Origin: Clytia hemisphaerica
Taxonomy: Eukaryota
Direction: 5' to 3'
NCBI RefSeq assembly: GCF_902728285.1
Contig: NW_027104280.1
Location: forward strand, 483,995-547,994
DNA: 64,000 nt
Part shown: one piece after another, positions 31,484 to 59,790 of the stretch
How the letters are laid out: each line of letters opens with the position of its first letter
Position numbering within the stretch: position 1 is the first letter of the stretch
Notes under the pieces: model-generated
Told to the model about the DNA's origin: nothing
The model's database searches: none
What the model saw: the letters and a program-made list of their open reading frames with translations, nothing else
Position numbers and translations under genes: made by a program

Positions 31484-32539
31484 ATGGATCCATTCAAAAA
31501 ACTTGCCCTTTTGAAGGCCAAAATGACCAGCATGAGTAGGGCCCAGATTGCGGAAGCCATCCGAAACATGACCCTGGGAGTAAACACAACAGAACAAGAG
31601 CCAGACCTTACTACACCACAAAATCAACCTTTGCAAGGACAGTCACAGAACTCTGCAGGTGGTTTTTCCTACACTGTAGATAATATAACCAGACTGAAAA
31701 GATATCTGATATTAGGTTCAGATAAAGCAAAATACAAGAGTGGCTCTCAAGCAGAAAATGTTCAAAACATTCCAGTTGTTGAAGAACTTTTAAAGGAGGG
31801 CAAGGGAAAGGAAGTGATTGATTTGATCGTTCAGTTTGCTCGTGAAGCACGTATCTCAAAAGAGGAGAACATTTTGATGGTATTACGTGATTGTATGATG
31901 TATCAGGGAGATACCATGTATGAAGATAGGACCATACAACGAGCTGCTTATGACAGTATTGTCAAAATCTGTAATATCCCAACCAAGCTTTTCCGATTGA
32001 TGGAGCTTTGTAAACCATGTTATCAAAATAATTGGAAGCCTTCAACCAAGCCAGTCAGTAAGACGCAACTACGGAAGAAAGCAAAACAAGCAGCTCAACA
32101 GCAGAATCCAGGGCCTTCCACCTCCACTGAAACTGCAACCGCTCAACCACCGTCAGCAAAAGTGCCAGTTGAAACATGTGAAATTGTTGAAGAGGGTGAA
32201 CCTCCCAAGAAAAAGAAAAAGAAGACGAAGAAGAAGAAAAAACCAAAGGAACCCAAACCTCAAACAACGCAAAGGTTCAAAAAATCTTCCAGTTGGGGAC
32301 GTGCTAGACGGCGTGGTGTCGGAAATTTTTACACCGATCCAAGTAAAGATGCCAATCGATTGTTATTGTTGATGACAAAGTACAAACAACGTCATAATTG
32401 GAACCATGTTCAAACGTTGGGTTATTGTCATCCAAAAATGATGGGAGACGAGGAACAAGCTAAGAATATCGTCCTCCAGTATTGCACACGTGGCAAAGAA
32501 AAGTTGGACAAATATCTGGTCAAGAAAAATATCGATGGG
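31484..32539 (+). CDS. RO60: Ro60-like B exon 1
   Basis: ATG at 31484; donor ggg|gtaacg. Confidence 0.8.
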
Positions 32540-40913: not shown

Positions 40914-41981
40914 ATGGACCCATTCAAACAACTTGCCCTTTTGCAGGCTAAAATGGCCGGCATGAGTAGGGCCCAGATTGAGGAAGCCATCCGAAACATG
41001 ACCCTGGGAATAAACCCAACAGAACAAGAGCCAGACCTTACTACACCACAAAATCAACCTTTGCAAGGACAGTCACAAAACGCTGCAGGTGGTTTTTCCT
41101 ATACTGTTGATAATATAACCAGACTGAAAAGATATCTGATATTAGGTTCAGATAAAGCAAAATACAAGGGTGGCTCTCAAGCAGAAAATATTCAAAATAT
41201 TCCAGTTGTTGAAGAACTTTTAAAGGAGGGTAAAGGAAAGGAAGTGATTGATTTGATCGTTCAGTTTGCTCGTGAAGCACGTATCTCAAAAGAGGAGAAC
41301 ATTTTGATGGTATTACGTGATTGTATGATGTATCAGGGAGATGCCATGTATGAAGATAGGACCATACAACGAGCTGCTTATGACAGTATTGTCAAAATCT
41401 GTAATATCCCAACCAAACTTTTCCGATTGATGGAGCTTTGTGAACCATGTTATCAAAATAATTGGAAGCCTTCAACCAAGCCAGTCAGTAAGACGCAACT
41501 ACGGAAGAAAGCAAAGCAAGAGGCAATACAAGCAGCTCAACAGCAGAACCCAGGGCCTTCCACCTCCACTGAAATCCCGGCCGCTCAACCAACGTCAGCA
41601 AAAGTGCCAGTTGAAACATGTGAAATTGTTGAAGAGGGTGAACCTCCAAAGAAAAAGAAAAAGAAGACGAAGAAGAAGAAAAAACCAAAGGAACCCAAAC
41701 CTCAAACAACGCAAAAGTTCAAAAAATCTTCAAGTTGGGGACGTGCTAGACGGCGTGGTGTCGGAAATTTTTACACCGATACTAGTAAAGATGCCAATCG
41801 ATTGTTATTGTTGATGACAAAGTACAAACAACGTCATAATTGGAACCATGTTCAAACTTTGGGTTATTGTCATCCAAAAATGACGGGAGACGAGGAACAA
41901 GCTAAAAACATCGTCCTCCAGTATTGCACACGTGGCAAAGAAAAGTTGGACAAATATCTGGTCAAGAAAAAAATCGATGGG
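40914..41981 (+). CDS. RO60: Ro60-like C exon 1
   Basis: ATG at 40914; donor ggg|gtaacc. Confidence 0.8.
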
Positions 41982-44900
41982 GTAACCATATCTCATTCCT
42001 TTCTATTTTATTTTTTTTTAATTTGTAAGAAGAGATATGATACTTTCGTCACTGTCTTTGTAGTGAGAATTTATCTCGAATCTGTTCAAATGACACCACT
42101 TACTTTATTAATCTCCTACCATTTGCTTACATGGCATTTTTAATCTCGCGTCGTGCGAGCACAAATTTTGATAATTTCTTTTGTTTGTTATACTTTGTCG
42201 GCATAGAAGCTTCTTATTAAAAAAGAAGATCCTTATTATTTCCACACACTCCCTGGAGCTGGTAATCGAAAAAGGTTGAATCCAAGTTTAGTAAATATCA
42301 TGAAATTTTTCACATTGATAACAAGGTTTTCTTAATTTTTGGACTTTCTTTCCAGAATCAACCAATGGATCCAATCACATCTCAAATATTACAACACATA
42401 AAAGTTCTTGAGGAAGTCAAGAACCTGAAACCGGATGTCCCGGCCGATGTGGAGAGATTGTTGCAATTGTTGCATCAATACGGTATTCGGGAGGTGCCAC
42501 AAGAATTTGATGTGGACGCTGCAGGTCAGATGGTACAAGTGGAAAACACTCAACGTAAAAAATGTTCTTTTCAACTGACCAGGGAGCATTTACCGAATGG
42601 CTTCCAAAAATTGAAGGAGGTAATAGTTGATCAATTAAACGAAACTTAAAACCGCTAATATACGGTTTTTTCAATCCCGATCAGCCCGATCAGATTTTCT
42701 ATTGATCGAAAGTTAGTCCTTGAAAGCTTGACTAAAAGCTCTTTTAATCGTAATTAAATACTTAAATGGTTCCAATTTCACTCTACTCATGAATACCAAT
42801 TTTTCTCCCTTAAAATTTTTAGGTTTGGGTGGCTCTACTTCAAGACATGCCCATGACAGCCTTGATCAGGAATCTCGGCAAAATGACTAGCCTTGGGCTC
42901 TTTGATGATCCAGCAAACAGAGAAATCGTCAAGAAGGTTTTAGGGGATGGCTCTATTTTGAACAAAGCAAGAATTCACCCAGTCAAGGTTTGCTATTTAT
43001 TTAGAGTGGCGGCCAAGGCGCATAAACCAGGGGCTCCCTGCTTCTGTCGATGTTCCGATATTGAATAGGCTTTTTTCGAGCCCTTTTAGTTTTGGCGCAC
43101 GTTTTGTTCTATACGACAATAAAAGCCGCGTGTAAATTTATGGGAATAAGGTATATCTATTTGCTTACTGGTGATATTTAACGTTGAATTTCCACGGTCT
43201 TAAGGCCGGTCTCCACTTGCGCGTGCTGCGATCGCATTTTTTGGCTTCAGTGCTTTTTGCTTGGATAAAAGATTACGTCATAAAAATGTAGCGCACGCTC
43301 GAAAAAAAAGTTGAACACATTTCAACTTTTTTCAACCGTTAACGTCAGATCGCGCCAATGGAGTTGCTTCATTTTTCTTTTGACCAATAGCGTGGAGGCT
43401 TCGCCCGAAAAAGTGCGATCGAAGCGCGCGCAAGTGGAGACCGGCCTTTACACTGCACCTTACATGAATGATCAAATACCAACTATATATCCATGAGGGG
43501 AAAAGTAGAAAACTGTTTCTTACTTGATGAATTTGTAAGTGATGCACCGTGATTGAGCCTGTAAGTAATGCACTCTGATTGAACCTGTAAGTAATGCACC
43601 CAGATTGAACCTTGTTTCAGATTCTGTTAGCATCAAAGATGTATGAGCAAGGCCATGGTGATCAAGGCCAAAGCCATCAACCACAACAAGAATATCCAAC
43701 AATGAGTCTTTCTCAACAACTACGACAACAACGACAACGACAACAACAGCCACAACAACCACAACAACGAGTACCAACCAAAGAACCACTTACTTGGATA
43801 CCAAACGCTGAAATCTCCAAAGCTCTCAATGATGCTTTCTACTTAAGTTTCAGGGTAAGCTCTACTTTAGAGATGCAAGCATGGTTAACATAGTCAATCA
43901 TTCTGGTATAGCGAATTCCTATGGCTCATTTTGAACTTTTATATACTTGCTAAAATTGATTAGTCTTCTAGAGAATCTCTTTTAATATTTCCATAGCAAC
44001 CCGGCAAGAATTCTTCCTTCCGTACGGACAAAAAGTTCATGTTAAATCTGGATGTTAGTGGCTCTATGGATTGGCGTAACTGTGTAGGGTGTGATTTCCT
44101 GACGCCCGCTGCCGCCTCTTTCGCCCTGGCCATGATTACGATGAAAGTTGAGCCACATTGTAGCGTGTTCGCTTTCGGGCGCACGCTTCAAAATATCGAT
44201 CATTTATTGAAGAGGGATATGACCATCCGTGAAGCCATTCAATTGGGACGCTCTGTAAGTCGACTTCACTATCAAGAAATCTCGTTTTGAATTATTCTCA
44301 TTTCTTTATTTCTTCGAACTTGTGTCTTACCTAAATCAGAATATACATCATTCTCAAAAAGTCAAAAATGTCTACGGTTGACTCTCGCTAATTCCGAATT
44401 ATATTTGAATCTTTCTAGAGTTTAAACTAATTCCCAGTCTCCATCAAAGTAGAAGCCTCTTTATTTCGAATATTTCTGTAATTCGAGCAAATCAGACTTC
44501 CCTTTCGACTTTGAATGAGCGAGACTAAAATATATTTAAAAATCGACTTCAATGTCAATAGTTTAATTCCAAAATTTTCTGTGCTTCTTTTATCAGTTAT
44601 GTCATCATGCCTCATTAAACTTAACTTAGGACATCCGTATATCTTTCAGATCAACTTTGGTGCAACAGACTGTGCTCTACCAATGGTACACGCCACGCAG
44701 AACAGGCTGGATGTGGACGTTTTCATTGTTTACACTGACTCCGAAACTTGGGTTGGAAAAGTTCATCCTTCCGAAGCTTTGAAGAATTATCGTCTAAAGA
44801 TGAACAAACCGGATGCCAAACTCATTGTCATGGCAATGCAGGTTTGTCTGTTCTCCATTTCACGGCCTGTAATGCTGGAATATATGCAGTCTGTTCCTCT

Positions 44901-45500
44901 AAAGAATCCTGCATTGTAACACGGATGCTTAATTTGTCGTTCTTTAAAAACCATATATAGTTAATTCCCGTGATAAACAAAGAAGAATGAATCTGTAGGG
45001 TTGGTACAAGTCACTTTCGGTCGGAGCTGTGGACGGCGAAATATGTCGTTTTTTATGAAATTTGTCGTTCTTTTTGTCTATTTTTAGTAATGCAGGATTC
45101 TTTAGATAAACCCCCTCGTCATGATATTATGATATCTCGTTATAAAAAGTGTTGGCATCAATTCATTTCATTCGATTTCAATCCTGTAAAACCTTTAAAA
45201 CACACGGTGAATAGGTCATCAACTTCTAGTTATTAGAATTCTGTAGATAAATCATTCTTTTTCATTGTATTTGAACTTTTCGCACACTTGGGATTGTTGT
45301 GGTGCATATAAAGACCTCTTTACAGGTTTTGTACGGGATTGTTGTGATGAATATAAAGACCTTTTTTCTTCTCTCCATTTTTCAAGGTTAATGATTTCAC
45401 GATCGCCGATCCACTCGATCGCGGTATGTTTGACGTTTGTGGATTCGATTCTAACGTACCTGACATGATCTGCGAGATCGCCAGAGGAAATATGTCTTGA
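40914..45500 (+). CDS. RO60: Ro60/TROVE2-like paralog C (recent duplicate of B), 7 exons
   Basis: join(40914..41981,42356..42619,42823..42987,43621..43854,43997..44254,44650..44841,45387..45500). Exons are about 93-97% identical to B. MIDAS DVSGSM. Exon 4 carries an expanded (CAA/CGA)n polyQ tract. Confidence 0.8.
42356..42619 (+). CDS. RO60: Ro60-like C exon 2
   Basis: Acceptor tttccag|aat; donor gag|gtaata. Confidence 0.75.
42823..42987 (+). CDS. RO60: Ro60-like C exon 3
   Basis: Acceptor ttttag|gtt; donor aag|gtttgc. Confidence 0.8.
43203..43447. mobile_element. MITE with 21-bp TIR aggccggtctccacttgcgcg and TTA target-site duplication, in intron 3 of paralog C; absent from paralog B
   Basis: tcTTA|aggccggtctccacttgcgcg...cgcgcaagtggagaccggcct|TTAcac. 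B has the unoccupied site. Confidence 0.75.
43535..43612. repeat. Same 26-bp minisatellite, 3 units, upstream of the exon 4 acceptor of paralog C
   Basis: tgtaagtgatgcaccgtgattgagcctgtaagtaatgcactctgattgaacctgtaagtaatgcacccagattgaacc. Confidence 0.8.
43621..43854 (+). CDS. RO60: Ro60-like C exon 4 (polyQ expanded)
   Basis: Acceptor ttgtttcag|att; donor agg|gtaagc. 234 nt versus 171 nt in B. Confidence 0.75.
43997..44254 (+). CDS. RO60: Ro60-like C exon 5 (MIDAS)
   Basis: Acceptor ccatag|caa; donor tct|gtaagt. Confidence 0.8.
44650..44841 (+). CDS. RO60: Ro60-like C exon 6
   Basis: Acceptor tttcag|atc; donor cag|gtttgt. Confidence 0.75.
45291..45372. repeat. Two-unit remnant of the 45-bp satellite just upstream of the paralog C terminal-exon acceptor
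   Basis: ggattgttgtggtgcatataaagacctctttacaggttttgtacgggattgttgtgatgaatataaagacc. Confidence 0.8.
45387..45500 (+). CDS. RO60: Ro60-like C terminal exon
   Basis: Acceptor tttttcaag|gtt; stop tga at 45498-45500. Confidence 0.7.
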   Translation, partial: VNDFTIADPLDRGMFDVCGFDSNVPDMICEIARGNMS

Positions 45501-46728: not shown

Positions 46729-46960
46729 ATGAGCGATGGACAACAATCGTCCTCGTCAGCGCAACAAGAAGAAGACGTTCCGTCTTCAGAGAACATCGTT
46801 GGTGTGGAACTTTTCAGCAGTGATGAAGTGAACCATTTAAGATTCGAAAATCCCTCCCAAGAAGAAGACGTGCGGAGAAGGCGGAATGATAACCGCTTCG
46901 CGTATAACATGAGAGTGCGCACGGAGCACGTTGCTGGCACTCCTCAACTTCCTATCACAG
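46729..46960 (+). CDS. Paralog D exon 1 (acidic, S-rich N-terminus)
   Basis: ATG at 46729; donor cacag|gtgagt. Phase 1 end joins exon 2 in frame. Confidence 0.4.
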
Positions 46961-49900
46961 GTGAGTTAATAGCCAGTTTATGTATGTGTGTTTTTTTCTG
47001 CGACAGGGACGGTTAGGTTTTGATTCTACATCATGGACTTTGACGTCCTCAAAAGTGGAAATACATAAGGGAATAAGGGAACGCATAAATGAACAAACGA
47101 ACGCATAAATGAATGATCGAACGAAGGAAGGAACAGATAAAAGAATGAATGAGTGAGTAATCAAATGAACAAACAAGCGAAATAGCGAATGAAGCAATCA
47201 GTGAGTGAATGAATGATGACAGACTGAGAGAACGAGAGAACGAGCGAATGATTGAATGAAAAAAAACGGCCTGATTAAGAAATGAAAATGGATTATTCAC
47301 CAAATGAGCGAATGAATTATCCTGTAATTGAGATGACAAAAGGAGTGTCGGAAAGATCGGACGAAAGAAGCTACGAATTGTTTTCTTTTTTCAGGTAATG
47401 AAGAACAAGACAGCGCTTTAATGGAAATCCACTTATTAGCACAAGCCTCTCAATATCTTCCTCGCGATGTAATCATAGCCAAAATTCGAGAAATCCAAGA
47501 TAAAATGAAACCAAAACCTGTACTAAGGCCTCGATTACCCAGACCATCTCCGTTTGTGACAGAAATTGATCGAGACCATCCGATATTTATTCGACAGTTC
47601 TATTCTTTTGTTTTGACTGGTAATACAACCGGACATTTTCGTGTAGTTAGTACACCAGTACATTTTGGTGAGTTGGATTTCATGGACGATATTTTGAAAG
47701 ATTTAAACGATGTAGCAATATACGAGTTGGTAAAATTTCTTTTGAAGTTGAAGGAAAAATATTTTTGTCGAACGAAATTCTTGTTGATGGTTTACTTGAA
47801 GTTTGTTTTTGCGTCCAATCAAAAGACTTCGAAACAAGCGATCGACAATTTCGATAAAATTTGTGATACTGGTTCTTTATTGTTTCAATTTATGTCATTA
47901 AGTGAGAAATTGTACAATCATATTCATGGAGCGCCAGATGTACCACAACTTTCCAAAGATGAGCTACTGAGAAAAAGACTGGCACGTTTTGAAAAAATGA
48001 ACGTTCCATCCGCCAAAGCTTTACCTCCACATGATACGAACAGTAAATTTTCAGCTAGTCATTCTGCCGTCACAACTTTACCTAGCAACTCAGCCGCTAC
48101 ATCTTCTCAAAAGCCTAGCAGCTCAGCAGCTTCAGAAATCGTTCCCATGGACTTTGATAAGCCAATCAAAAAGAAGAAGAAGAAGAAGAAGAAGAAAAGA
48201 ATAAAGGTGAAGCATCCGAAACCATCTAAAAAGCCGGTCAAAGTTCACAAAAAATGTAAATTGAAACTCAGACATAAAAGCTTGCGTAAATGTTTCACAA
48301 AATTTCTTGATGCCACTCCACCTGGTTTGTTATTGTTCTTCATGTCACGTGACGTCGAGTGGGAGCGAAAAGAAGAATACGACTTTGTAGACTTCAAATA
48401 TCTTTTCAAACATTTACACCCAAAAATAACTAAGGATGCAGATTTGAAGAATTTGATAATTATTAATCATTTAAGTGGAAATGAAAAATTTCGGGAACAA
48501 GCAGATAACTACGTGGAGCAAAACCCGGTCTTGCAGAATACCGAAAATATAGTTTTAAACGGGATTATAACTACCGAAAATTTGAAAACGGATTTCGCGT
48601 ATAAAGGCTTATTTGGAGGGGAACAAGTTCACAATAGGAACAGTTTAAACATGATGCTTTATAAATGGGGAGAATTAGGGAAAAGAATTTGGACAGATGT
48701 TTCGGACACTTCAACAAAATGTGTGGAATTTTCGGACGAATATTCGTTAGACCAAGAGAAATATTTTCGATTGACTTATGAACATATAATCGAACACCAT
48801 CGGTATCAACCAAAGGTAGGTTTGAGTAATGACCATTATCCTTCACTCTCTTTTCGATCGATGTACTGACTTTTATATATCCTTGGACCAAGCTATATCC
48901 GCCATCTTTGATCGAAGTTTTTTTGAAAGTTGTGCCCACCAAGAAGCCATTGTAGTGTTTGAAATTTTGTCCAATGACAAACCGCGCTACATCATTAGTG
49001 TGTAAAAGCGAAACTAGATCTAGCGCTCTCTCCGTTGGTACCAATTTCAAAAAAACTCCGATCGTGATATTTTGCTTGGCCGGCATTGAGTAACTTGGTC
49101 CAGGGATATATAATGGATGGATGCAATAACTGCCATCGTGATCTTCTATCAAAAAGGTGTCACGAAAATTTGTTAGATTAAAGTCCGAGTTTCTTAAGAG
49201 AAGTTGCACGATGTTATCGTCCGTTAAATGGAGTAAACGCGGGAAAATATATATTTGCGCGGAGTATGCAGCCGTCAGGACAGTTTACGGGAAAATAGCG
49301 GTGGTACTGTAAACACCTCCACCCCTTCTCACTCCGTCCTGGGCTAGACTCCGTTTTTTAATTTATCCCGCCTCCTAAATTATTCCCTTTTTAAGGGACC
49401 TGCTCTACGAATGGGATATTGTAAAGAGAAATGAACTTAGAATACTTTTTTTATTTGTAGGTATGGGTAGAAATTGTTGAGGACCTCCCTTACATGTTGG
49501 TTCTGGAGAAATTGGAATTCATTTTCGAACGAAATCAATTGATTGGAAACAAACAGCTTGTTTTCAAACTTCAAATGATTATCGAAAGTATCAACCGAGT
49601 GATTGCTGCCAAAGTTCACCCTACACAAGTATGATGCCACATTTCTGTCCATTAGAATTGTTCTCTTTTATCGTGGTCCCCTCTCTCTACAATTCGAAAG
49701 CTTGACGCGAACGCAAATTTGTTACAGTAATGTGTCGAAATTATTGAATTTCAAGTTATTGATATATTTTGGAGTTGGTTAGAGCTTTTACTGTAAACCC
49801 AGCTGGCACACAACGTTGTTTCAACGTTTATCTAACGTTCACAACGCCCATATAACGTTAGATGAACGTTGAAACAACGTTGTGATTATTTTCTCATTTT

Positions 49901-51521
49901 CAGATCATTTCGCTCTACTTCACACTTCGACAGAAAACCAAGAAAAACAGAGGCTCCACTAAAACTGTTCAAAACAATAAAGATAAAGTCCTCAAAGCCT
50001 TATACCGTGCCTTTCATCTTTGTCTGCAGGTATGTATCCCTGACCCATTTTTTAGAGAAGGATCGGCCCTCCCGAACGATCAAATAACACCAGGCTCGTG
50101 TACCGAACTTTTCTAACACAATAGCGCTCTGCAACGCATACGTCATAATTGTTACTTTTGACTTTTTTTGACATTTGTACGAGTTGCAATCCCACAACTC
50201 AATGCGGCTCAATTTAAGATACGTGCAAATTGTTATATATATCTTTTGTCAAATGATGCAATTAACGTGCAAAAGAGATTAACGCAAAGGTTGATAGAAC
50301 TGGAACTCGATATGGACGTGTCGGTTCAACCGATATTGTTCAATGGCCCTCCGTAATACTGTTTTTACTGTATTTTGAAACTTTAAAACTTTTCTTCGTT
50401 TTGAGGTGTAAACTAACTAACTTTAAAGTATTTCCTTTTTAACTCTTTTTAGAGCGATGATATGAAACAAATCTTCTCTACTCACAAAAGACACTGTATA
50501 GCATTAGACCTCCGCCCTCAAATGTTCGAAAAGAAAAGGGATTCCGCCTTCACGCCTATCGAAGCCGCCCTTTGTTATGTTATGTGTTTGTATTATTACG
50601 AGGAATATTTCCATATTTACGCCTACAATAAAGAAATGGACAGCATAAAACAACATTTCACTCGAAACTTCGAGCTCAACGAACTAAGGGACACATTTCA
50701 AAAGGTATTTTATATGCCCTTCACATAAATATAGGACCAGAATAAGAGTAAAATACAATATTTCACACCTTTTCGACCGTTGCAGACAATTTTCGCGCGG
50801 CTATTTTTTTGTCTGTTTTACCACCCTTATACCGCCCAGTCTTTTTTTCGCATCTATAGACAATAGAAAAAGGTGTAAAAAAGGATTGGATCTAGTTTAA
50901 GGGGGATAATTAAATAATAAAGTGGCACGCGCCTGACCGCGCGACTACGGTCGAAAAGGTGTATTTGTTTGAAACATTACAAGCCTAGGTTGGCTTGAAA
51001 AAAATATCAAGCTTTCTAAAGGTGGGAGGGGGGGGAGTTGGTTTTATAAAAAGGTGGTGTTCAAGTTAACCATTTCGGGAATTGTTGAATTTTTAAATAT
51101 GTTTTAATTATTCCATCAATTTTTGTTTTAGATGAAAAACGAAGAGACAGTCAATTATCATGCTTTTCTTCACCATGCTTTCGAAAAGCGAATCGATACA
51201 GACGCTTTTGTTTTCATTTCTTCCGATTCTCCAAATACCGACTTCGAACAATTATCGACCTTAATGACCACTTACCGAACGAAAATGCATCGCCCTGACA
51301 CTAGTGCGTTTCTATGGCAACTCATGAGCCAGGGTATTCAACCCAGGGTAGATTCGCCTGTCTGTTTACTTCAGGGTGTTGATAAAAATGTTTATTATTA
51401 CCTGAATGCAGCGGTTCGTTTTGCTGGCATCACCGCGCAGCCTGTTTTGTCCGCCGCTTGCGAAGCATCACAACCTGACGTTGATACGAGTGTAGAATTA
51501 GGAACTTGGAGAGTTGGCTAG
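46729..51521 (+). CDS. Divergent TROVE-domain / vWA-like paralog D (MIDAS degenerate), 6 exons
   Basis: join(46729..46960,47395..48815,49461..49628,49904..50029,50453..50704,51132..51521). Same exon architecture and phases as A-C. Motifs: IRQFYSFVLTGNTTGHF (cf. FLCFGSEGGTYY), a poly-K insertion, SLRKCFTKF, VWVEIVEDLPYML...KVHPTQ, ALYRAFHLC, HCIALDLRPQMF (replaces DxSxS), DAFVFISSDSPNTDFEQLSTLMTTYRTKMHRPD. Exon 1 is speculative. Confidence 0.65.
47066..47310. repeat. Degenerate GAATGA/GAACGA-type microsatellite-like tract in intron 1 of paralog D
   Basis: aacgcataaatgaa / gaatgaatga / gaacgagaga motifs. Produces spurious S/F/I-rich minus-strand ORFs. Confidence 0.6.
47395..48815 (+). CDS. Paralog D exon 2 (TROVE core)
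   Basis: Acceptor ttttttcag|gt; donor aag|gtaggt. 482-aa open frame. Confidence 0.65.
49461..49628 (+). CDS. Paralog D exon 3
   Basis: Acceptor tttgtag|gta; donor caa|gtatga. Confidence 0.6.
49798..49884. mobile_element. ~90-nt hairpin element (cccagctggcacacaacgttgtttcaacgtt...aacgttgaaacaacgttgtg) about 20 nt upstream of the exon 4 acceptor of paralog D
   Basis: 31-bp stem with one mismatch. The right terminus is truncated relative to the copy at 53775. Confidence 0.6.
49904..50029 (+). CDS. Paralog D exon 4
   Basis: Acceptor ttttcag|atc; donor cag|gtatgt. Confidence 0.6.
50453..50704 (+). CDS. Paralog D exon 5 (degenerate MIDAS)
   Basis: Acceptor tttttag|agc; donor aag|gtattt. Confidence 0.6.
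51132..51521 (+). CDS. Paralog D exon 6 (terminal)
   Basis: Acceptor ttttag|atg; stop tag at 51519-51521. Confidence 0.6.
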   Translation: MKNEETVNYHAFLHHAFEKRIDTDAFVFISSDSPNTDFEQLSTLMTTYRTKMHRPDTSAFLWQLMSQGIQPRVDSPVCLLQGVDKNVYYYLNAAVRFAGITAQPVLSAACEASQPDVDTSVELGTWRVG

Positions 51522-52453
51522 ACAAAGAGCTTTTCTTTTGTATTTTTTGGATCGCTAAAATTTTTGTCAAATACAAAAAATCTAAATTTGATTTTTGTTG
51601 CTTTAGAACTTAAAGTTTTTGATACATCATAATTTATTTTTATGTATATTCTCACATTATTGTACATAACTTTACTGTACAATTTTATTCAATTTTGATT
51701 TTTAGGTAGTTTTTTAAATTCCATGCCGTCGTGTCGGTGGGGCGTATATTTAGAGAATATTTAGGCTCAAGTCTGTTCACAAAAAAATGGCAGTCTACAC
51801 ACATTTTCACACACTGATCTCGTTGGAGGAGGAGAAATCCGCTCCAAATTATCTTTTCAACGAGGTATTATTTTCATTATATCTTTTCTCCATCAAAATC
51901 AATGTTTGAAGAAGTATGAACTGTCAACTTTTTTGGAACAGACATTTAATAATCAAATATATGAAAAAGCTTTTTGGGTGTTGTTGCAAAACATAATTAC
52001 TATCTCTTTGACCTCTTTGGGATATATAGGTCGTTACGAATGTCAGTTAATTTAAGACATTTTCTTGATTGCTTCAATGTTTTGTTTCTTCAGATTTAAC
52101 ATAAAACAATAAAAATTTATAAAAATAAAAAATAAATTTAAAATATTGAATACAAAATGGATGAATGGCATTGGCCTGTGTTTTTGGTGTCTGGAAAACC
52201 CAAGTAAAAGAAGAGAGGAAACGCCAGAGAGAAGAAACATGGGGGAGAACACAAACTGTAAGTTTGACTCACTTGTTTTCATTTCCCGCAAAATTTGGCG
52301 TGTTTTTTCGGTTTAATAATTTTACGGAAATACCCTTTTAGTTTTGTTCAATTTATATCCTACTTTCTCCCGTGAAAACTTGCTACCCTCATCCTTTCTT
52401 TAAATGCCAGTTCTTAATAACAGGGCGAACCTTCTTGTAAAAAGTTTACAAAT

Positions 52454-52822
52454 TTATAAGATGTTGTATTTTTGTAGCCAATCAGGAATTTTGAGCACTT
52501 CAACCTTCCTCTTCACTGCGGAGCCGCTCTTCGCTTTTCTTCTCCCTCTCCACGCTTTGGCCCCTTTTTGTTGATTAGTCCAGCATTTGTCACAGACCAT
52601 GGATCTCTTTCCACGCCATGCGTTTTCATTGGTTTTGCCAACCATGTCGTCACCAGTCTCCGGGTTTTGGTTGTGGCGCTTACACAAACATAACGCTTTC
52701 CGCCTGTTGAACCACTTCAAAAGGATTTCCTGTTCTGCGATACTTAATGGCTGTTCTTGTTCTCTTTTGACGTTCGATATCTGTCCCGGTTTGTGAATTT
52801 CTTGATTCTGATATCCGCCCAT
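52454..52822 (-). CDS. Hypothetical small basic Cys-containing protein (122 aa), single ORF between paralogs D and E
   Basis: The GC-richer ORF MGGYQNQEIHKPGQISNVKREQEQPL...CLCKRH...CDKCW...KRKVEVLKIPDWLQKYNIL stands out from AT-rich flanks. Has a CxC..H...CxxC arrangement. No confident family assignment. Confidence 0.3.
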   Translation of the reverse strand: MGGYQNQEIHKPGQISNVKREQEQPLSIAEQEILLKWFNRRKALCLCKRHNQNPETGDDMVGKTNENAWRGKRSMVCDKCWTNQQKGAKAWRGRRKAKSGSAVKRKVEVLKIPDWLQKYNIL

Positions 52823-53774
52823 CTCGAAAATTGTGTTTTCTTTAGGGATAAGTTGCAGTGAAAACCTTTCTCGTTGATCCAGTGATTGTACTGAAATGAC
52901 AAGTAAAATTTCTTCAATCTCGATTACATTTCGAACCTTGAATAGAAGTTAAAAACAGGAGTGGTAGACTAGTCTCAAATTTGAACAAACTGAGGAGAAA
53001 AACTTTGAATTTTGCAAAGAATTTTGTGTCATTAACTTGGTATTCAATTTGACTTACCATTTGGTTTTGCGAGGATACATGAAGGTATAATGAACAGCAA
53101 AATATAAATCATGTTGTGTGTGTGTGTGTTCGTTGTTCTACAATACGTCGTGAACGAAATCCTTTACCTTTTATGCACCCCTCACTAGAAGGTAATGTCT
53201 GGGAACCAAACAGATGACAAAGTGTTATTTTATGAGGGGAGGGAAATTAAAAAAAACAAAAAGAATTTTGTAGGGTTTATATGAATTAAAATCTTCCTTT
53301 TTAATGTCTTTTAAAAGGACCGGTATGACACTTCTTCTTTTGTCTGTTTGTTTTTTTGAAGCATGAAAAGGAGTGAGAAAAAGGAGGTAATTCTTCCTAT
53401 TTCTTTGATGAAGGGAAATTTCGCGAATTAATTACATCTGCCCTCTCTGTTTTGCGCGAGAAAAATGGGTTCGAGAGATATTTTACCGCAATTAAGTCGA
53501 GTGTGAGATCCTATGACGTTCTCACGTCCTTTTTCATTGTTGACCCCCCTAACAACATATTATACAAATCCGCTGTTTTATCGTTACGATATAATTAAAG
53601 ATTTTCTTATTTCTTAGATTTTAAACTCTGTTGAAAGTAATGAAATATTAAATAAAACAAAAGAAGAATTTATGAAATGTCTTATAGGAGTCTTTAATTA
53701 AAGTGAGACATAAAATGATATAATTGTCAATATACTGGTACTGCCAGCAAAAAAACTCTTATGAAATAATTAAC

Positions 53775-53871
53775 CCAGCTGGCACAAAACGTTGTTTCAA
53801 CGTTTATCTAATGTCCATAACGTCCATATAACGTTAGGTGAACGTTGAAACAACGTTGTGTGCCAGCTGGG
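53775..53871. mobile_element. Complete copy of the same hairpin element (42-bp stem, cccagctgg...ccagctggg termini, left flank TTAA) immediately upstream of the first recognisable exon of paralog E
   Basis: ttaa|cccagctggcacaaaacgttgtttcaacgtttatctaatg..cgttaggtgaacgttgaaacaacgttgtgtgccagctggg|aatg. Confidence 0.6.
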
Positions 53872-53890
53872 AATGCCCCTAAATTTACAG

Positions 53891-54712
53891 TTTTAGATCA
53901 CGAAGAAGTCCGAATCGCGGATCGCTTATTCTCTTTATCGGAAGATACTTCAATACAACCGGTTCTCGTGGTTACAAATGGTAGCTTTTCGCTTGAGAGG
54001 CGCTTTAAAGAACTATCCATCCACACTCCACCCAAAGATGTGGCGGCCCGCCTTCTTGGTGAATATGAATATTATGGAATCAACGAATTGAAGAAATTTC
54101 TAAGGATAGGATGCAAAGCCTGTCCACAGTTCACTGAATGTCATAAAGATAAAAAGAAAGTCGAATCCGTAGCTCAAAAACATCAGCACGAATGTTTACG
54201 GATCGTTCGAAATTTATTGGCCATAGGAAAAAGTGCCGAAATCATTGACTTGGTCAAAGAGAAAACAGGTTGTCTACTGTTGCATTATGAGCCGCTATTC
54301 ACTGTGCTAAGTCTTTGTAGTATCATCGGAGAGAAACCGGTCCGCAAGCAGATTTACGAAATTGCGTTGGAGATGTGTTTCAACTGCCCACGACTCTTTT
54401 ACTTTGTGGCTTGCAGTGAACACTTCCGCCATTTACTTGATGACGTGGCGACAAGCGGCAAACAGGACAAACGCGTCAAATATTGGGAACCTTTGCGCAG
54501 GCGCATGATTGCCAGGTTCTACAATAGATACGAACCACATGAACTGCTGTACATGACCACACGCCACAAGCAACGTTATAAAATCACGCACCGAACAATC
54601 TTGTGCAAAAGTCGACCCCCACCTCGCGGTGACCATAAAGAAGCCATTGACTTGATCTTTTGTTATTTGTCACGTGGTTTCAACAAAACGGAAGCGAAAG
54701 CTAATGTTAAAG
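53891..54712 (+). CDS. Paralog E first recognisable exon (partial)
   Basis: Open from the hairpin element; putative acceptor tttacag|tt; donor aaag|gtcagt (phase 1). Confidence 0.45.
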
Positions 54713-57700
54713 GTCAGTCTTCTTGATAACTATTGAACTTTGGTAAAAATCATAAAAATGATATTTTCTTTAGAGTTTTGGTAACTTCCATTTTTACGGC
54801 GCTAACTACCCAAAAGTCCGCTCAACCTCCAATTGCTTTTCTGAGCACTGATTGGTTTATTTGGCTCAATTACATCATAATTTTGAGATTCGACCAATCA
54901 AATTGATTGATTGGATAGCTAGCTGTAAGTGCGGTTTAAATGTCAGGACTCTTTATAAGCGGACATTTCGTGTATGTGAATCAGGCTTTTAACTTTTAAT
55001 TGATGAATTCAAAGAAGTAATGGATGGATTTTATTATTTTTTAGGAAAAGCAATCCAGCCCATGACGAGCTCAGTATTTCAGAAAATTGAATTACTGGAA
55101 GAAATCAAAAGTCTGTCATTCAACGATGAAAACATTGGCAAGTTGCAGAGAATCATTGAAGAGAATATTAAGCATGAAACGATTAATGAATGGCAAGGTT
55201 ACAGTCAACCGTCACCAACAATCCTCTTCTTTAATGTTTTATTGGAACACATCCCAAATGAATTCCTTAGACAATACAAGGTGATTATTTATCCAGGTTT
55301 TCCCCTGCGTTGGCAATACCATATTCTTATCCTCTCCTCACGCAGACTCTCCTCCAAAATTCAGTTTAATGTGTTAGATTTGTTAAGCACAATCTGGCAA
55401 GAGCTTCACTTGTAAAAGTCGACGTTTCTTTGTTTCAAATAATGTCAGCCTAACATCATTTCACTTCAATAATGATTAGAGCTAACAACAGTTTGTAAAT
55501 CAAATTTTCTCTTTATTCTGGTCCGTAGATTTTGCGATCGTTGCTTCCCGGAATGCCGATCGGGACGTTGATCTTTAAACTTGGCGTGATATCGCATCAT
55601 GGTTTATTCATGGAAAATAGCGGTGATACTCCTGCAACGAAAGAACAAGTTGATGAAAATATTCAAACTGCACTCCAAATAATCAAAGATCAAAAAAATA
55701 GGCTGCATCCTTTTAAGGTAAAATTTGATTTATTGCAAATCGATACATCATGCTACGGATTTGGTTAAGTTAACCGAGGCTATATTTCAAAGTCGGTGTG
55801 ATTTGCAAACATTTTCGGGGAGATTGGGATGTTTTCCATGTAGCTATGTGTAAAATAGAATACAGCGGTACGATTCAAACATTAGTTTTAAAGATGTATC
55901 CTTGATATAGAGGATTTCGATTTATGGTTTGAATTGTGAAAAACCTGCTGTTCTATTTAAGACCTTTAAGATCTCTAACACTACGGTACAAACGGTGTGA
56001 TCGTGTTCCCTTTTACATACTTTTGTCTTATGTTACTTTCAGATTTTGAAAGCAGCGAAGTGCTACAGTACAGGGCAAGCTGACTTGCGCATTTACACAA
56101 GAAAAATCGCCGAAAGAAAGTCGTTAAGGACATCGTTGACATGGAAACCCAGTCCACAGATCATAGATGCTCTTTATGAGGCTTTCCGCACCCAACAGGT
56201 TTGTCTTTTAGGAATGTGTTTTGAATTATCGATATGAATGTTCTTGCTTTGCTTCCAAATAATCTGAAGCGGAGACAAAAAGGGTGTAACATTGGAATTT
56301 AAATTAGGTTGCACTTTTATGCTTGTTGAAAAGACATTTAAGAGTGGAATATTACTAAAGTCTATTCACGATAAGTGTGCACTCTTTTTTCTTTTACCTA
56401 TAACTTTTGAAGGAATTCTTCAATCTTTATAAATTTGGTATCATTGGAAAGATATTAGTGAGTGGAACAGTTTGAAATAAAAAAATCTTTTAAAAAATTC
56501 TAGAAATGAAGATGAAAATGAAGAAGAAAAAAATTAAGATCTTGTAGAAAAGTGCTACAACAACCATTTTCACAGAAGTAAATCCTTGATCATCTAACGT
56601 CATCACTGTGAAAAAACGTCTCAAAAATAATTATTCAGTCAAAAGATATTAAACAAAGTTATAAGCTGATTGACGTCTAAAAACGCTGTTTTCTGCTGTT
56701 TTCTGCTGTTTTTGGGTCAATCACTTACTAACTTTGTATCATAACTTTATACAGTATTGAACATATATATTTTAGTGAAATTTCTTCACAGTGATGACCT
56801 CCTAAGATCAAGGAATCTCTCCAGTGAAAATGAAAGTTATAGCACTTTTCTACAAGATCTTAATTTTTTTCTTCTTCATATCCATCTTCATTTCTAGAAT
56901 TTTTTTAAAGACTTTTTTATGTCAAATTGTTCCACTCACTAATATCTCTCCAACGATACCCACTAATATCTCTCCAACGATAGCAAATTTATAAAGATTG
57001 AAGAATTCCTTCAAAAGTTATAGGTAAAAGAAAAAAGAGTGCACACTTATCGTGAACAGACTTTAAAGAAAAAATTCTAAAAAGATACAATTTTAAAAGC
57101 TTACATAGCATTTTTTTCAACGCTTTAGATTATAATGAGATGAATTTTATGTAATCTACGTAATTTGGCGTATATTTGGGATAAGCTACTAGGATTGGGT
57201 ATTAAGTAGGTGTTTATCAAATCATGATGGACCGGATTCTTTAGGTGTCTTAACCCTTCGAGCATCTTGCCCCCCCCCCCCAAAAAAAAAAAAACACTTT
57301 TAATAACTTTTGAAATACTGGTCCAATGGACTTGAAATTTTGCAAGTGTGCACAAAATATGAATTGGCATCTTTGGTAAAAATTTCGGCTTCATTGATGA
57401 CGTCATTACCACCTGATTACGTCATGATTTTTTTTAAATGCCCAAAATAGGACCCTTGCCATTTCTTGCAACCTGTTAGTATCGTGTAATTTACAGACCG
57501 GCCCAAAATTGCCCTTTTTGCCTAAATTAGCCTTAGGTTACTGTATCTTAGGATTGGAGAATGTTGTTGACTTGAAATTTCGACAAGTGGTAGGTATTGA
57601 TAATACAAGCTTGCAGCCAAAATTTCAGCAAAATCGAACGAGTGGTTCTGCTAAAATTGAGCATTTCTGGTAAAAAAACGAACCGGTCTGTAAAATACCA

Positions 57701-59710
57701 ACAACTCACGTGATCAAATTGACATTTTGCAAACTGTCTTAGATGGTCAATATCTATCACTAGTGAACATTTCAACTCAAAAGTTCCAGTAGTTCCTGAG
57801 TACCGGCAGAGGGTTGGCAAACGATATCATCCACCAGGATGCATCCTCTCTTATTTTCCCCCTACTTTCTTTTTTCCTATCTTCTATCCTGATTTTCTGA
57901 CTTTCCCAAGTTCCGGAGTACCGGCAGGGAGTCTACATGTATTTTACAGACCGGTCGCATGACCAAATACTCATGTGACCAAATTTTCTCCGTTACTCGT
58001 CTTTTCTATTTGACAAAATAGCCTTAAGAAACAAATTTCAATCATCCAAAAGAAACTACTGGTCTACTAAACTACAAACTAAATCTACTGCTGGTAAAAG
58101 TTTCAAGTTCATAGAACTTGTCAATCTTGAGATTTTAAGGTGCTTCTATGAAGATTCGTTATTTATTCGTTATTTCGTTAATTCGAAAGGTTAACAACAA
58201 GAGTATCGAAGGGGAAAAAGTGTGTTAGCCCTTTTGCAATGTAGGTGTAATTATTCTTACCTTTGTCTGAATAAATCGTTGAAATCCCCTGGAGTATTTT
58301 TCAATCCATTATTTTATTCACGGCTGTGTGACCACTATCCCGCCATTATGAAAAAGCTTCTATTTTGATCTCAGATATACTGTAGACCCGTATTATCTCT
58401 AAAATGTTTTTTACTTTTCGACGAGTTATAGCGCTCACTCTGATACAACATGATCTGGAAGCCTTTCTAACTCTTCACATTAAATTCTTCATTAGGTGGT
58501 GGAAGGATGTGTGTCCGAGAGAAAGATATTGTTTGCTATGGATAATAGATGGACAGAAATGTATAAGGAGCAACTTCAAGGCTGCCCATCCCTCACTCCT
58601 ATCGATGCTGCAAACATATTACTGTATCTCTTATGGAAAGCACAGAAGGATGAAAATGAAGTTGTATTTTATGGGAAAAGAGGAGAAATCATAAAGTTGA
58701 AAGCCTTTGCAGAAAATAAGTTGGAACATTTTGAAAAAGATTTACGGGAGGTAGGGTTTTCTATATTTGACAGAATAGACTGGAGTCGATTAGAATCCGT
58801 GTAATACAGTAATAAGGTTGTTTTACGATAATACGATAACTGTTACGGGATAATATCAGTTTGTGTACCACGATTTGTCCCCTCCATTATTGGACCTACC
58901 TCCGGGTACCCCGGTGGAGGTTCTATAAATTAACCCATGTCCGTTCGTTAGTTCGTCCGTCCGTCTGTTACCAGCTTTTCTCAGGATTGGCTCATTAGCT
59001 TTTTCTGATTTTTTACTCAATGATGCAAAATGGCAATGCCCAGAACGTGACGGAGCCCGATTTTTGAGAAAAAATTTATTTGGGCAAATTTGGGCCAAAA
59101 ACAGCTTCAAAGTTTTTTTGGGCCTGAATGGTTCAAGTGATTTTCATATTTGGGGAAATTCCTTTTTACCATTTTACATTATTCAACACACAAGCTTTAT
59201 TTTTCCATTCTGAATTTCTGTACAATTATTGTCACTTTTTTCTTATTTTCATCTTATGTTAATCATTAGGTAGGCCTATTCAACATGTTGCTTGTTTTTT
59301 GATTATTTTCTGTATTGTCGTCTAGTATGCTAAGCTAAAAATATGTACCTTCTTTCGGCCCTTGCATTTTTTCATTTAATGAGTTTCATCGGCTTTATAA
59401 TTACACTATACTGTTTTCTTTCCAGAAATCATCAAAAGCTGGCCCAATAAATTTGATCAAAACCATCGAGCATGCCGAGAAATTGAAAAAGTTTGATGCC
59501 ATTGTAGTGTTGACGGATAAAAAACCACGTTTTGCGACTGGTGGTGTAATCAACGAATGGGAGAAGTACAAGAAGATACTCCCTGATGCTAAAATGGTTT
59601 TAGTGTGTTTGAATGAATGTAAATGTTTTGGATTTGGGAGAGATGATATGTTATACATGTGTGGTTGGGATGAAAATAGTTTTGCAAATATAGCTCATTT
59701 TCTGATGTGA
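53891..59710 (+). CDS. Divergent TROVE-domain / vWA-like paralog E (MIDAS degenerate); 5' exon(s) and start codon not identified
   Basis: join(<53891..54712,55045..55280,55529..55717,56043..56198,58496..58750,59426..59710). Motifs: LGEYEYYGINELKKF, WEPLRRRMIARFYNRYEPHELLYMTTRHKQR, QPMTSSVFQKIELLEEIKSL (cf. B exon 2 QPMDPITSQILQHIKVLEEVKNL), ILRSLLPGMPIGTLIFKLG...RLHPFK, ILKAAKCYSTGQAD...LTWKPSPQIIDALYEAFR, RKILFAMDNRWTEM (MIDAS lost), DAIVVLTDKKPRFATGGVINEWEKYKKILPDAKMVLVCL. There is no in-frame ATG in the first recognisable exon. Confidence 0.6.
55045..55280 (+). CDS. Paralog E exon
   Basis: Acceptor ttttttag|ga; donor aag|gtgatt. Confidence 0.6.
55529..55717 (+). CDS. Paralog E exon
   Basis: Acceptor ccgtag|att; donor aag|gtaaaa. 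Confidence 0.6.
56043..56198 (+). CDS. Paralog E exon
   Basis: Acceptor ctttcag|att; donor cag|gtttgt. Confidence 0.6.
56355..57068. mobile_element. Foldback element (~300-bp inverted arms) in the exon 4-5 intron of paralog E
   Basis: ctaaagtctattcacgataagtgtgcactc... is the reverse complement of ...gagtgcacacttatcgtgaacagactttaaag. Inner arms tgatgacgttagatgatcaagg also match. Confidence 0.75.
58496..58750 (+). CDS. Paralog E exon (degenerate MIDAS)
   Basis: Acceptor cattag|gtg; donor gag|gtaggg. Confidence 0.6.
58892..59276. mobile_element. GGACCTACC-family element in the last intron of paralog E
   Basis: ggacctacctccgggtaccccggtggaggttc ... ttaggtaggcc. Confidence 0.65.
59426..59710 (+). 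CDS. Paralog E terminal exon
   Basis: Acceptor tttccag|aaa; stop tga at 59708-59710. Confidence 0.6.
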   Translation, partial: KSSKAGPINLIKTIEHAEKLKKFDAIVVLTDKKPRFATGGVINEWEKYKKILPDAKMVLVCLNECKCFGFGRDDMLYMCGWDENSFANIAHFLM

Positions 59711-59790
59711 AGTCTGAAGCAGCTCATTTTGTATTTCTTCAACAGCTTCCACTCATAAATCTTCATATTGCCTTAATCGCCTCATTTTTT

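What the first reader, a model, noticed from the sequence alone, without database searches (positions are those of the whole stretch)
50453..58750. Paralogs D and E keep the TROVE-vWA scaffold but have lost the MIDAS metal-binding motif
In A, B and C the vWA exon begins [13 protein letters not shown] / KKFMLNLDVSDSM / KKFMLNLDVSGSM, the canonical DxSxS MIDAS that coordinates the divalent cation in Ro60. The homologous position reads HCIALDLRPQMF in D (exon 50453-50704) and RKILFAMDNRWTEM in E (exon 58496-58750). The conserved ARIHP ring-entrance motif is also altered (KVHPTQ in D, RLHPFK in E). This pattern suggests neofunctionalised or regulatory, decoy-like paralogs rather than decaying pseudogenes, since all splice sites and reading frames are intact.
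Basis: partly seen in the sequence, partly recalled or inferred. Interest (0 to 1): 0.7.

Follow-up and report, generated by a model that had tools for sequence, protein, structure and literature searches.

The report
Two diverged Ro60 paralogs lacking MIDAS
In a five-gene tandem array of Ro60 RNA-chaperone genes in the jellyfish Clytia hemisphaerica, the last two genes are intact and under purifying selection, but both their metal-binding site and their Y-RNA-contact helix have been rewritten, so they probably act as metal-independent Ro60-like proteins with different partners.

Summary
The window is Clytia hemisphaerica DNA carrying five tandem + strand Ro60/TROVE genes. A, B and C have an intact MIDAS (DVSGS/DVSDS, GxTDC, YTDS). 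D reads DLRPQ and E reads DNRWT, and both lack five residues of the MIDAS-threonine loop.

My exon models reproduce NCBI proteins XP_066929345.1 (D) and XP_066929347.1 (E) exactly, with GT-AG at every intron. No alternative vWA exon exists.

They are not pseudogenes. Exon-1 orthologues from a related species give dN/dS of 0.16 (D) and 0.14 (E), while the introns do not align. A distant E-type orthologue, 34% identical, keeps the same six-exon structure and an open frame.

E folds confidently as a full Ro60 ring plus vWA (pLDDT 81, TM 0.71-0.80 to Ro60 structures). D is colinear with Ro60, but its model is poor.

In the E type, the ex-MIDAS segment (DxRx[KT]EMxKEQL) and the altered Y-RNA helix (W177 to I/M/V, D181 to T/K/S, H187 to R) are the best-conserved stretches. 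They were remodelled, not eroded.

The "ARIHP alteration" lies within normal family variation. Imperfect MIDAS motifs occur in 21 of 92 related Ro60-like proteins, so loss alone is not exceptional. Nothing supports a decoy role. Interest is moderate.

The parts
46729..51521 (+). Gene D (XP_066929345.1, 'uncharacterized protein', 862 aa). Exons: 46729-46960, 47395-48815, 49461-49628, 49904-50029, 50453-50704, 51132-51521.
   Evidence: The model translates exactly to P0001 with GT-AG at all introns. Pfam vWA_Ro60 scores 41.3 bits against a cut-off of 27.7. phmmer to 1yvp gives E = 7e-8. hhalign of the N-terminus against a Ro60 profile gives probability 83% and E = 1e-5.
50507..50521 (+). D ex-MIDAS motif, DLRPQ in place of DxSxS.
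   Evidence: Alignments; coordinates.
51153..51233 (+). D remnants of the MIDAS Thr loop (NYHAF/LHHA, 5 residues shorter, no Thr) and of the YTDS Asp strand (FISSDSP).
48345..48425 (+). D counterpart of the Ro60 Y-RNA-contact helix (SRDVEWERKEEYDFVDFKYLFKHLHPK). It is strongly diverged with insertions, and the final His is kept.
   Evidence: This part of exon 1 has the lowest dN/dS (0.04) against the related species.
52161..59710 (+). Gene E (XP_066929347.1, 'RNA-binding protein RO60-like', 679 aa). Exons: 52161-52257, 53891-54712, 55045-55280, 55529-55717, 56043-56198, 58496-58750, 59426-59710.
   Evidence: The model translates exactly to P0003 with GT-AG at all introns. AF2 gives pLDDT 81 and pTM 0.81. 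Foldseek to Ro60 structures gives E = 7e-22 and TM 0.71-0.80.
58541..58555 (+). E ex-MIDAS motif, DNRWT. It is part of a segment DxRx[KT]EMxKEQLxGxxSLxPID conserved with the distant orthologue L003.
59447..59527 (+). E shortened Thr loop (INLIKT/IEHA) and the retained last MIDAS Asp (LTDKKP).
54556..54621 (+). E counterpart of the Y-RNA-contact helix (TTRHKQRYKITHRTILCKSRPP). Human W177 becomes I, D181 becomes T and H187 becomes R. These states are shared by all E-type sequences.
   Evidence: Residue roles are taken from PMC11231564 and PMC11277228.
27894..30655 (+). Gene A, a canonical-type Ro60 with intact MIDAS and a Lys-rich insertion. Exons: 27894-29066, 29261-29425, 29586-29726, 29883-30143, 30356-30655. 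The 5' end is uncertain.
   Evidence: 1yvp E = 5e-93.
31484..39377 (+). Gene B, intact MIDAS (DVSDS). Seven exons: 31484-32539, 32954-33217, 33386-33550, 34018-34188, 34352-34609, 35057-35248, 39264-39377.
40914..45500 (+). Gene C (XP_066929344.1, Ro60-like, 764 aa), intact MIDAS. Seven exons: 40914-41981, 42356-42619, 42823-42987, 43621-43854, 43997-44254, 44650-44841, 45387-45500.

Best explanation
D and E are real protein-coding members of a five-gene tandem Ro60 (TROVE + vWA) array in Clytia hemisphaerica, and both are under selective constraint.

E belongs to a distinct, older 'E-type' subfamily. It is also found in a close relative of Clytia and in at least three or four more distant, unnamed, probably hydrozoan genomes. 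D is a very fast-evolving relative seen only in Clytia and that close relative. It is probably the sister of the E type, because it shares the Ser->Arg change and the 5-residue deletion in the MIDAS Thr loop.

Shown here:
- Both proteins have lost the side chains that coordinate the divalent cation in canonical Ro60.
- E keeps the full HEAT-ring plus vWA architecture.
- In the E type, both the ex-MIDAS segment and the helix that contacts Y RNA in canonical Ro60 carry clade-specific residues that are the best-conserved parts of the protein.

Inferred:
- The vWA face was converted to a metal-independent surface. The conserved Arg at the second MIDAS position plausibly pairs with the retained Asp and fills the cation site.
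- The RNA-binding surface was retuned.
- These proteins therefore work as Ro60-like rings with an RNA and/or protein partner different from that of the canonical copies A-C. They are neither dead copies nor competitors for the same Y RNA.
For: - Identity and models.
- MIDAS loss and the shared loop deletion.
- No alternative vWA exon.
- Purifying selection: D exon 1 against L001 gives dN 0.14, dS 0.87, ratio 0.16, while only the exons align between the two contigs. E exon 1 against L002 gives dN 0.17, dS 1.20, ratio 0.14.
- Deep conservation of the E type: L003 carries a six-exon, 602-codon open gene with the same intron positions. It is 34% identical to E, and E matches it far better than A does. 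Further E-type exon-1 fragments are P0009, P0010, P0011 and P0014.
- Remodelled sites are the most conserved: the top 25-residue windows between E and L003 are the altered helix (16/25) and the ex-MIDAS segment (15/25).
- Clade-specific replacements at human W177, D181 and H187. The roles of these residues come from PMC11231564 and PMC11277228.
- Fold: the E model has pLDDT 81 and pTM 0.81, and its ten best PDB matches are all Ro60/Rsr with TM 0.71-0.80. For D, the ten best PDB matches are also all Ro60/Rsr, Pfam vWA_Ro60 is above its cut-off, and the N-terminal repeats are colinear with Ro60.
- Tree: E+L003 100%, D+(E, L003) 96%, and all five Clytia genes fall inside one clade of Lys-rich-insert Ro60s at 92%.
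Against: - I obtained no expression evidence. No transcript contig encoding D or E was found.
- Selection was measured only on exon 1 (the TROVE part). No orthologue of the D vWA exons was found, and only one orthologue (L003) of the E vWA exons.
- The D structure model is poor (pLDDT 54, TM 0.3-0.45), so ring closure in D is not shown.
- The D+E grouping could be long-branch attraction.
- MIDAS-imperfect Ro60 homologues are common (21 of 92). One independent DxR group keeps the Y-RNA helix. MIDAS loss by itself therefore need not signal a new function.
- The role of MIDAS in Ro60 is unknown in any case (PMC12135203).
Confidence: 0.6

Rival explanations
1. MIDAS is simply dispensable. D and E still do the ordinary Ro60 job of binding Y RNA and misfolded RNA, and the motif drifted away neutrally after duplication (sub-functionalisation by expression, with no new biochemistry).
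For: The role of MIDAS in Ro60 is unclear (PMC12135203). 21 of 92 related homologues have imperfect MIDAS motifs. An independent DxR group, including Nymphon striatum KAG1653834.1, keeps the canonical Y-RNA helix residues.
Against: In the E type the ex-MIDAS segment is one of the two most conserved stretches, so it did not drift. The Y-RNA-contact residues W177, D181 and H187 are replaced by clade-specific residues, and H187S alone is reported to abolish Y RNA binding (PMC11277228).
Confidence: 0.2
2. D and E are regulatory or dominant-negative paralogs that sequester the RNAs or partners of canonical Ro60 without executing the MIDAS-dependent step.
For: The overall architecture is retained in E. 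The genes sit in the same tandem array as canonical copies.
Against: There is no direct evidence. A decoy should keep the ligand-binding surface, but E has changed the Y-RNA-contact residues and D's equivalent helix is heavily rearranged. The MIDAS-dependent step that would be 'missing' is not known for any Ro60.
Confidence: 0.1
3. D and/or E are pseudogenes in early decay that gene predictors annotate by homology.
For: I obtained no transcript evidence. D has no homologue beyond one close relative. Pfam TROVE is not detected in D and is sub-threshold in E.
Against: Frames of 862 and 679 codons stay open despite about 80% divergence from every paralog (chance about 1e-27 and 1e-21). All splice sites are canonical. 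dN/dS is 0.14-0.16 with dS of 0.9-1.2. The E-type gene structure is preserved in a 34%-identical orthologue.
Confidence: 0.04
4. The exon models are wrong, and a canonical DxSxS exon exists elsewhere in the D or E loci.
For: None was found.
Against: tblastn of A's vWA half against the whole window gives only the reported exons. Independent NCBI models are identical to mine. L003 has the same exon with DVRLK.
Confidence: 0.02

Closest known systems
Ro60 / TROVE2 (Xenopus 1YVP/1YVR/2I91, human 9NEN)
   Same: Colinear HEAT-repeat ring closed by a C-terminal vWA domain. The E model superposes with TM 0.71-0.80. The conserved [AS][RK][ILV]HP motif is present, and intron positions are shared with the canonical paralogs A-C in the same array.
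   Different: MIDAS ligands are lost and the Thr loop is 5 residues shorter. Y-RNA-contact residues are replaced (in E, W177->I, D181->T, H187->R). Sequence identity to Ro60 is only about 20%. D carries a long Ser/Lys-rich insertion and an extended C-terminus.
Canonical Clytia paralogs A, B and C in the same window (C = XP_066929344.1)
   Same: Same tandem array, strand and exon architecture. The Lys-rich insertion is shared by A-D.
   Different: A-C have an intact DxSxS...T...D motif and strong Pfam TROVE and vWA_Ro60 hits. D and E are only 19-26% identical to them.
MIDAS-imperfect Ro60 homologues elsewhere, e.g. Nymphon striatum 'SS-A/Ro ribonucleoprotein' KAG1653834.1 (P0029) with P0091, P0037 and P0050
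   Same: The same Ser->Arg replacement at the second MIDAS position (DVRNP, DIRGS, DTRAS) and loss of the MIDAS Thr.
   Different: They are independent (about 21% identical to E). They keep the canonical Y-RNA helix (W, D and both His) and have the normal length of about 540 aa. E and D changed both sites.
Bacterial Rsr (Deinococcus 2NVO) and Thermus phage Ro60 (9L5Y)
   Same: The same ring plus vWA fold. E matches 2NVO at E = 4e-17 and TM 0.74.
   Different: These are much more distant in sequence. I did not examine their MIDAS status here. Nothing in the window resembles a bacterial Rsr, Y RNA and PNPase arrangement, and there is no Rfam hit.

Membership tests
Ro60 / TROVE family (Pfam PF05731 + PF25045) | C-terminal Ro60-type vWA domain (PF25045). 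| tested here: met
   D scores 41.3 bits against a cut-off of 27.7. E scores 27.4 bits, just under the cut-off, but its confident model matches the whole of Ro60 including the vWA domain. The E alpha/beta pattern is seen at residues 511-664.
Ro60 / TROVE family (Pfam PF05731 + PF25045) | N-terminal TROVE HEAT-repeat ring. | tested here: inconclusive
   For E, Pfam TROVE scores 16 bits (cut-off 23), phmmer to human and Xenopus Ro60 gives E = 4e-14 across both halves, and the fold TM is 0.71-0.80, so the feature is met by fold. For D, there is no Pfam TROVE hit. hhalign places the N-terminal repeats colinear with Ro60 at probability 83%, and phmmer aligns D 534-789 to Ro60 250-494. The model is too poor to show a closed ring.
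Ro60 / TROVE family (Pfam PF05731 + PF25045) | MIDAS DxSxS...T...D in the vWA domain (motif as given in PMC11277228). | tested here: not met
   D has DLRPQ, no Thr and ISSDS. E has DNRWT, a shortened loop and LTD. The motif is intact in A, B and C and in 71 of 92 homologues.
Ro60 / TROVE family (Pfam PF05731 + PF25045) | Y-RNA-contact helix residues (human N175, G176, W177, D181, L185; H187 required for Y RNA binding). | tested here: not met
   The E type has W->I/M/V, D->T/K/S, H->R and G->K/N. D has W->Y and G->E with insertions, and keeps the final His. In 91 other homologues the position is aromatic in 88, D181 is kept in 79 and H187 in 82. The alignment of D in this stretch is uncertain.
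Ro60 / TROVE family (Pfam PF05731 + PF25045) | Binds Y RNA or misfolded RNA. | not testable with these tools
   This needs RIP/CLIP or EMSA. No Y RNA or other Rfam family was found in the window.
Processed or unitary pseudogene | Disabling mutations, relaxed constraint (dN/dS near 1), loss of introns or splice sites. | tested here: not met
   Open frames, GT-AG at every intron, and dN/dS of 0.14-0.16.
TEP1 (TROVE1)-type TROVE proteins | TROVE domain joined to NACHT NTPase and WD40 repeats. | tested here: not met
   No NACHT or WD40 Pfam hits in D or E. The best PDB and fold matches are Ro60/Rsr only.

The most novel reading that the evidence does not exclude
The E type (possibly together with D) is a previously undescribed, conserved hydrozoan subfamily of Ro60-like ring proteins. 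In it the cation site of the vWA domain has been replaced by a fixed Arg-containing motif, and the Y-RNA-binding helix has been retuned. This would give a metal-independent Ro60 derivative with its own, non-Y RNA or protein clientele. The array expanded in tandem and lies next to a DDX60-like helicase gene, which could hint at a role in RNA surveillance or defence.
Probability: 0.3. Interest if true: 0.55.

Novelty: new variant of a known kind. Interest (0 to 1): 0.4.

Why it matters
The function of the Ro60 MIDAS site is an open question (PMC12135203). Natural paralogs that sit beside canonical copies in one genome have rewritten both the MIDAS and the Y-RNA helix under constraint. They offer a ready comparison in Clytia, a genetically tractable animal, for asking what each surface does.

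The recurrent, independent Ser->Arg replacement in a sea-spider-type group and in the Clytia D/E group suggests a common route to a metal-free vWA face.

The practical significance is otherwise modest. The genes are already annotated. MIDAS erosion in vWA domains is a familiar evolutionary pattern. Nothing here points to a new kind of system.

Tried and rejected
- Word-indexed homologue searches with full D, full E and the Lys-free C-terminal 492 aa of D returned only the Clytia proteins themselves and one exon-1 orthologue of D. The deeper E-type relatives appeared only in the exhaustive HMMER search.
- A JGI metagenome scan with the D and E vWA halves found nothing, so I obtained neither transcript contigs nor vWA-exon orthologues of D.
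- The D structure prediction used only six sequences and gave a weak model (pLDDT 54). It was used only for local similarity.
- Model coordinates are not exposed, so the MIDAS pocket geometry and the Arg-in-metal-site idea could not be inspected.
- Stein et al. 2005, Bateman & Kickhoefer 2003 and Whittaker & Hynes 2002 are not held. Residue roles were therefore taken from secondary citations.
- Literature searches for Ro60 in Clytia or cnidarians, and for the accession numbers, found nothing.
- Rfam and tRNA scans of the window were empty, so no Y-RNA-like gene accompanies the array.
- The conserved non-coding block upstream of E's main exon has no Rfam hit and no excess folding energy. I rejected it as a structured RNA.
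- I considered and rejected an alternative vWA exon, pseudogenes, and the 'ARIHP altered' argument.


Full report
**What the window is**

The sequence is AT-rich eukaryotic DNA (36% GC). An all-against-all comparison of stop-to-stop ORFs shows five colinear sets of homologous exons on the + strand between 27.5 and 59.7 kb.

Protein searches identify the organism as the hydrozoan Clytia hemisphaerica. C is XP_066929344.1 ('RNA-binding protein Ro60-like'). D is XP_066929345.1 ('uncharacterized protein', 862 aa). E is XP_066929347.1 ('RNA-binding protein RO60-like', 679 aa).

I built exon models by hand. All introns are GT-AG. The models for C, D and E translate exactly to the NCBI proteins.

A is a strong Ro60 homologue (1yvp E = 5e-93). 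Pfam finds TROVE and vWA_Ro60 in both A and C.

**Checking the observation**

The quoted peptides are all present at the stated coordinates.

- In a five-protein alignment, A, B and C have the full MIDAS (DVSGS or DVSDS, G[SA]TDC, YTDS).
- D has DLRPQ, no Thr and ISSDS.
- E has DNRWT, a possible Thr in a shortened loop, and a retained LTD.
- D and E share an identical 5-residue deletion of the 'DCALP' part of the Thr loop.
- tblastn with A's vWA half finds only one vWA locus per gene, so no canonical exon is hidden elsewhere.

The 'ARIHP' point does not stand. In a 99-sequence alignment this motif reads ARVHP, ARIHP, SRLHP, ARLHP, AKIHP, AKVHP and so on in MIDAS-intact proteins. D (AKVHP) and E (NRLHP) keep the invariant HP.

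**Are D and E alive?**

The chance of 862 or 679 stop-free codons at this composition is about 1e-27 or 1e-21.

A marine metagenome (ENA ERZ23498720) holds genomic contigs of a related species carrying the large TROVE exon of D (L001, 73% aa identity) and of E (L002, 72%).

- Between the species the exons align at 75-79% nucleotide identity, and the neighbouring exon starts also align. Apart from one conserved non-coding block upstream of E's main exon and a mobile inverted repeat, the intron sequence does not align.
- Nei-Gojobori estimates are dN/dS = 0.16 for D (dS 0.87) and 0.14 for E (dS 1.20).
- Within D, the region around the remodelled helix has the lowest ratio, 0.04.

I found no transcript evidence.

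**E belongs to an older subfamily**

An exhaustive HMMER search with E gave 434 hits. The best were E-like exon-1 fragments (P0009 at 72%; P0010, P0011 and P0014 at 35-38%). After those came Ro60-like proteins with Lys-rich insertions, and then ordinary Ro60s.

The 37.8 kb contig behind P0010 (L003) carries a complete six-exon gene. It has canonical splice sites, the same intron positions as E, and a 602-codon open frame. It is 34% identical to E and matches E far better than A.

Its MIDAS position reads DVRLK, followed by EMQKEQLHGLCSLKPID. E reads DNRWT followed by EMYKEQLQGCPSLTPID.

The three best-conserved 25-residue windows between E and this orthologue are:
- the counterpart of the Y-RNA-contact helix, 16/25;
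- the ex-MIDAS segment, 15/25;
- the LHPxKxLKAAK helix, 15/25.

**The Y-RNA helix**

Secondary sources state two things. Human N175, G176, W177, D181 and L185 contribute to Y RNA binding (PMC11231564, citing Stein 2005). H187S abolishes Y RNA binding (PMC11277228).

Across 91 other homologues the W position is aromatic in 88, D181 is kept in 79, and H187 in 82. All E-type sequences instead have I/M/V, T/K/S and R at these positions.

D is heavily rearranged here with insertions (W->Y, G->E), though it keeps the final His. The alignment of D in this stretch is uncertain.

**Fold**

With a 99-sequence alignment, E is predicted confidently (pLDDT 81, pTM 0.81). Its ten best PDB matches are all Ro60 or Rsr (E from 7e-22 to 4e-17, TM normalised to target 0.71-0.80, about 594 aligned columns). 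The caveat is that the alignment itself is made of Ro60 homologues.

D had only six sequences and gave a poor model (pLDDT 54). The vWA part scores 60-86. Its ten best PDB matches are again all Ro60/Rsr, but with TM of only 0.3-0.45.

Independent sequence evidence for D:
- vWA_Ro60 is above the Pfam cut-off.
- phmmer aligns D 534-789 to Ro60 250-494.
- hhalign places D's N-terminal repeats colinear with Ro60 residues 30-144 (probability 83%, E = 1e-5).

Ring closure in D is likely but not shown.

**Relationships**

A neighbour-joining tree (521 columns, 100 bootstraps) gives these groupings:
- All five Clytia genes fall in one clade with unnamed Lys-rich-insert Ro60s (92%).
- A groups with P0012, P0013 and P0015.
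- B and C (92% identical to each other over the first exon's ORF) group with P0019 (100%).
- E groups with L003 (100%).
- D groups with E and L003 (96%).

The D-E grouping could be long-branch attraction. It is, however, backed by two shared derived characters, the Ser->Arg change and the 5-residue loop deletion. A single MIDAS loss in a D/E ancestor is therefore the simplest reading.

**How unusual is MIDAS loss?**

It is not very unusual. Of the 92 aligned homologues that cover the vWA domain, 21 have an imperfect motif. Examples are DISET, SVSEA, DCSTI and NVSTS in other Lys-rich-insert proteins.

An independent group has DVRNP, DIRGS or DTRAS. It includes Nymphon striatum KAG1653834.1, which is annotated as SS-A/Ro. 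That group keeps the canonical Y-RNA helix.

The literature held here says the role of MIDAS in Ro60 is unclear (PMC12135203), although a Ca2+-dependent Ro52 interaction has been proposed (PMC11231564). From general knowledge, imperfect MIDAS motifs are common in intracellular vWA domains.

**Interpretation**

Shown here:
- D and E are intact, constrained, colinear Ro60 homologues without the MIDAS ligands.
- E is a conserved subfamily with a full Ro60 fold.
- The two surfaces that define canonical Ro60 biochemistry are replaced in the E type by different but conserved residues.

Inferred:
- The vWA face became metal-independent, with Arg plausibly substituting for the cation.
- RNA specificity changed.
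- D and E are therefore neofunctionalised Ro60-like rings, not decoys or pseudogenes.

The decoy idea has no support. A neutral 'MIDAS is dispensable' reading remains possible, especially for D.

**Verdict**

This is a new variant of a known family and of moderate interest.

Noticed in passing
window 53161-53518 (inside E intron 1 of the NCBI model); L002 13-362: A single-copy non-coding block is 78% identical between Clytia and the related species, as well conserved as the exons, while the flanking intron does not align. It has stops in all frames, no Rfam hit and no excess folding energy (z = -0.2). It may be a promoter, enhancer or alternative 5' exon of E.
   Followed up: partly
window 49796-49884 and 53774-53871; L002 1740-1837: A MITE-like element of about 100 bp with terminal inverted repeats (TGGCACAAAACGTTGTTTCAACGTT...) sits immediately upstream of a splice acceptor in both D (exon starting 49904) and E (exon starting 53891). 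In the related species a copy lies at a different place, downstream of the exon, so the element is mobile.
   Followed up: partly
window 35980-37287 and 38612-39244 (last intron of B); short relative near 45247-45390 (last intron of C): Tandem arrays with a 45-46 bp period (28.5 and 14 copies) inflate B's last intron to about 4 kb, against 545 bp in its 92%-identical twin C.
   Followed up: partly
window 28300-28500 (A), 32040-32320 (B), 41470-41760 (C), 48168-48278 (D): A-D carry a Lys-rich, NLS-like insertion between the 'FIEL' helix and the WGR motif. It is absent from vertebrate Ro60 but shared by unnamed homologues P0012, P0013, P0016, P0019 and P0020. Several of those also end in a Cys-rich tail (...KCNVCEECQVN). 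E has only a short remnant.
   Followed up: no
window 63197-64000 (+), runs off the end: The next gene downstream of the Ro60 array begins with a DDX60-type PIN-like domain (PF23002, E = 2e-22). This is an RNA helicase family linked to innate immunity.
   Followed up: no
proteins P0029 (KAG1653834.1, Nymphon striatum), P0091, P0037, P0050: An independent group of Ro60 homologues has the same Ser->Arg change at the second MIDAS position (DVRNP, DIRGS, DTRAS) and no MIDAS Thr, but keeps a canonical Y-RNA helix. This looks like convergent loss of the metal site.
   Followed up: partly
window 11233-14669, 37243-38433, 58840-60183: A dispersed repeat family (ORF-level similarity on both strands) occurs upstream of the array, inside B's last intron, and in the E intron between the two vWA exons. 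It is probably a transposable element.
   Followed up: no
window 5514-6536 (-) and 17080-18459 (-): These long ORFs upstream of the array look, by eye, like a seven-transmembrane receptor and an asparagine synthetase fragment. They were not checked against Pfam.
   Followed up: no
L003 1481-6481: The distant E-type orthologue (602 aa) gets no Pfam hit at all at E <= 0.01. Members of this subfamily will be missed or left unnamed by domain-based annotation.
   Followed up: partly
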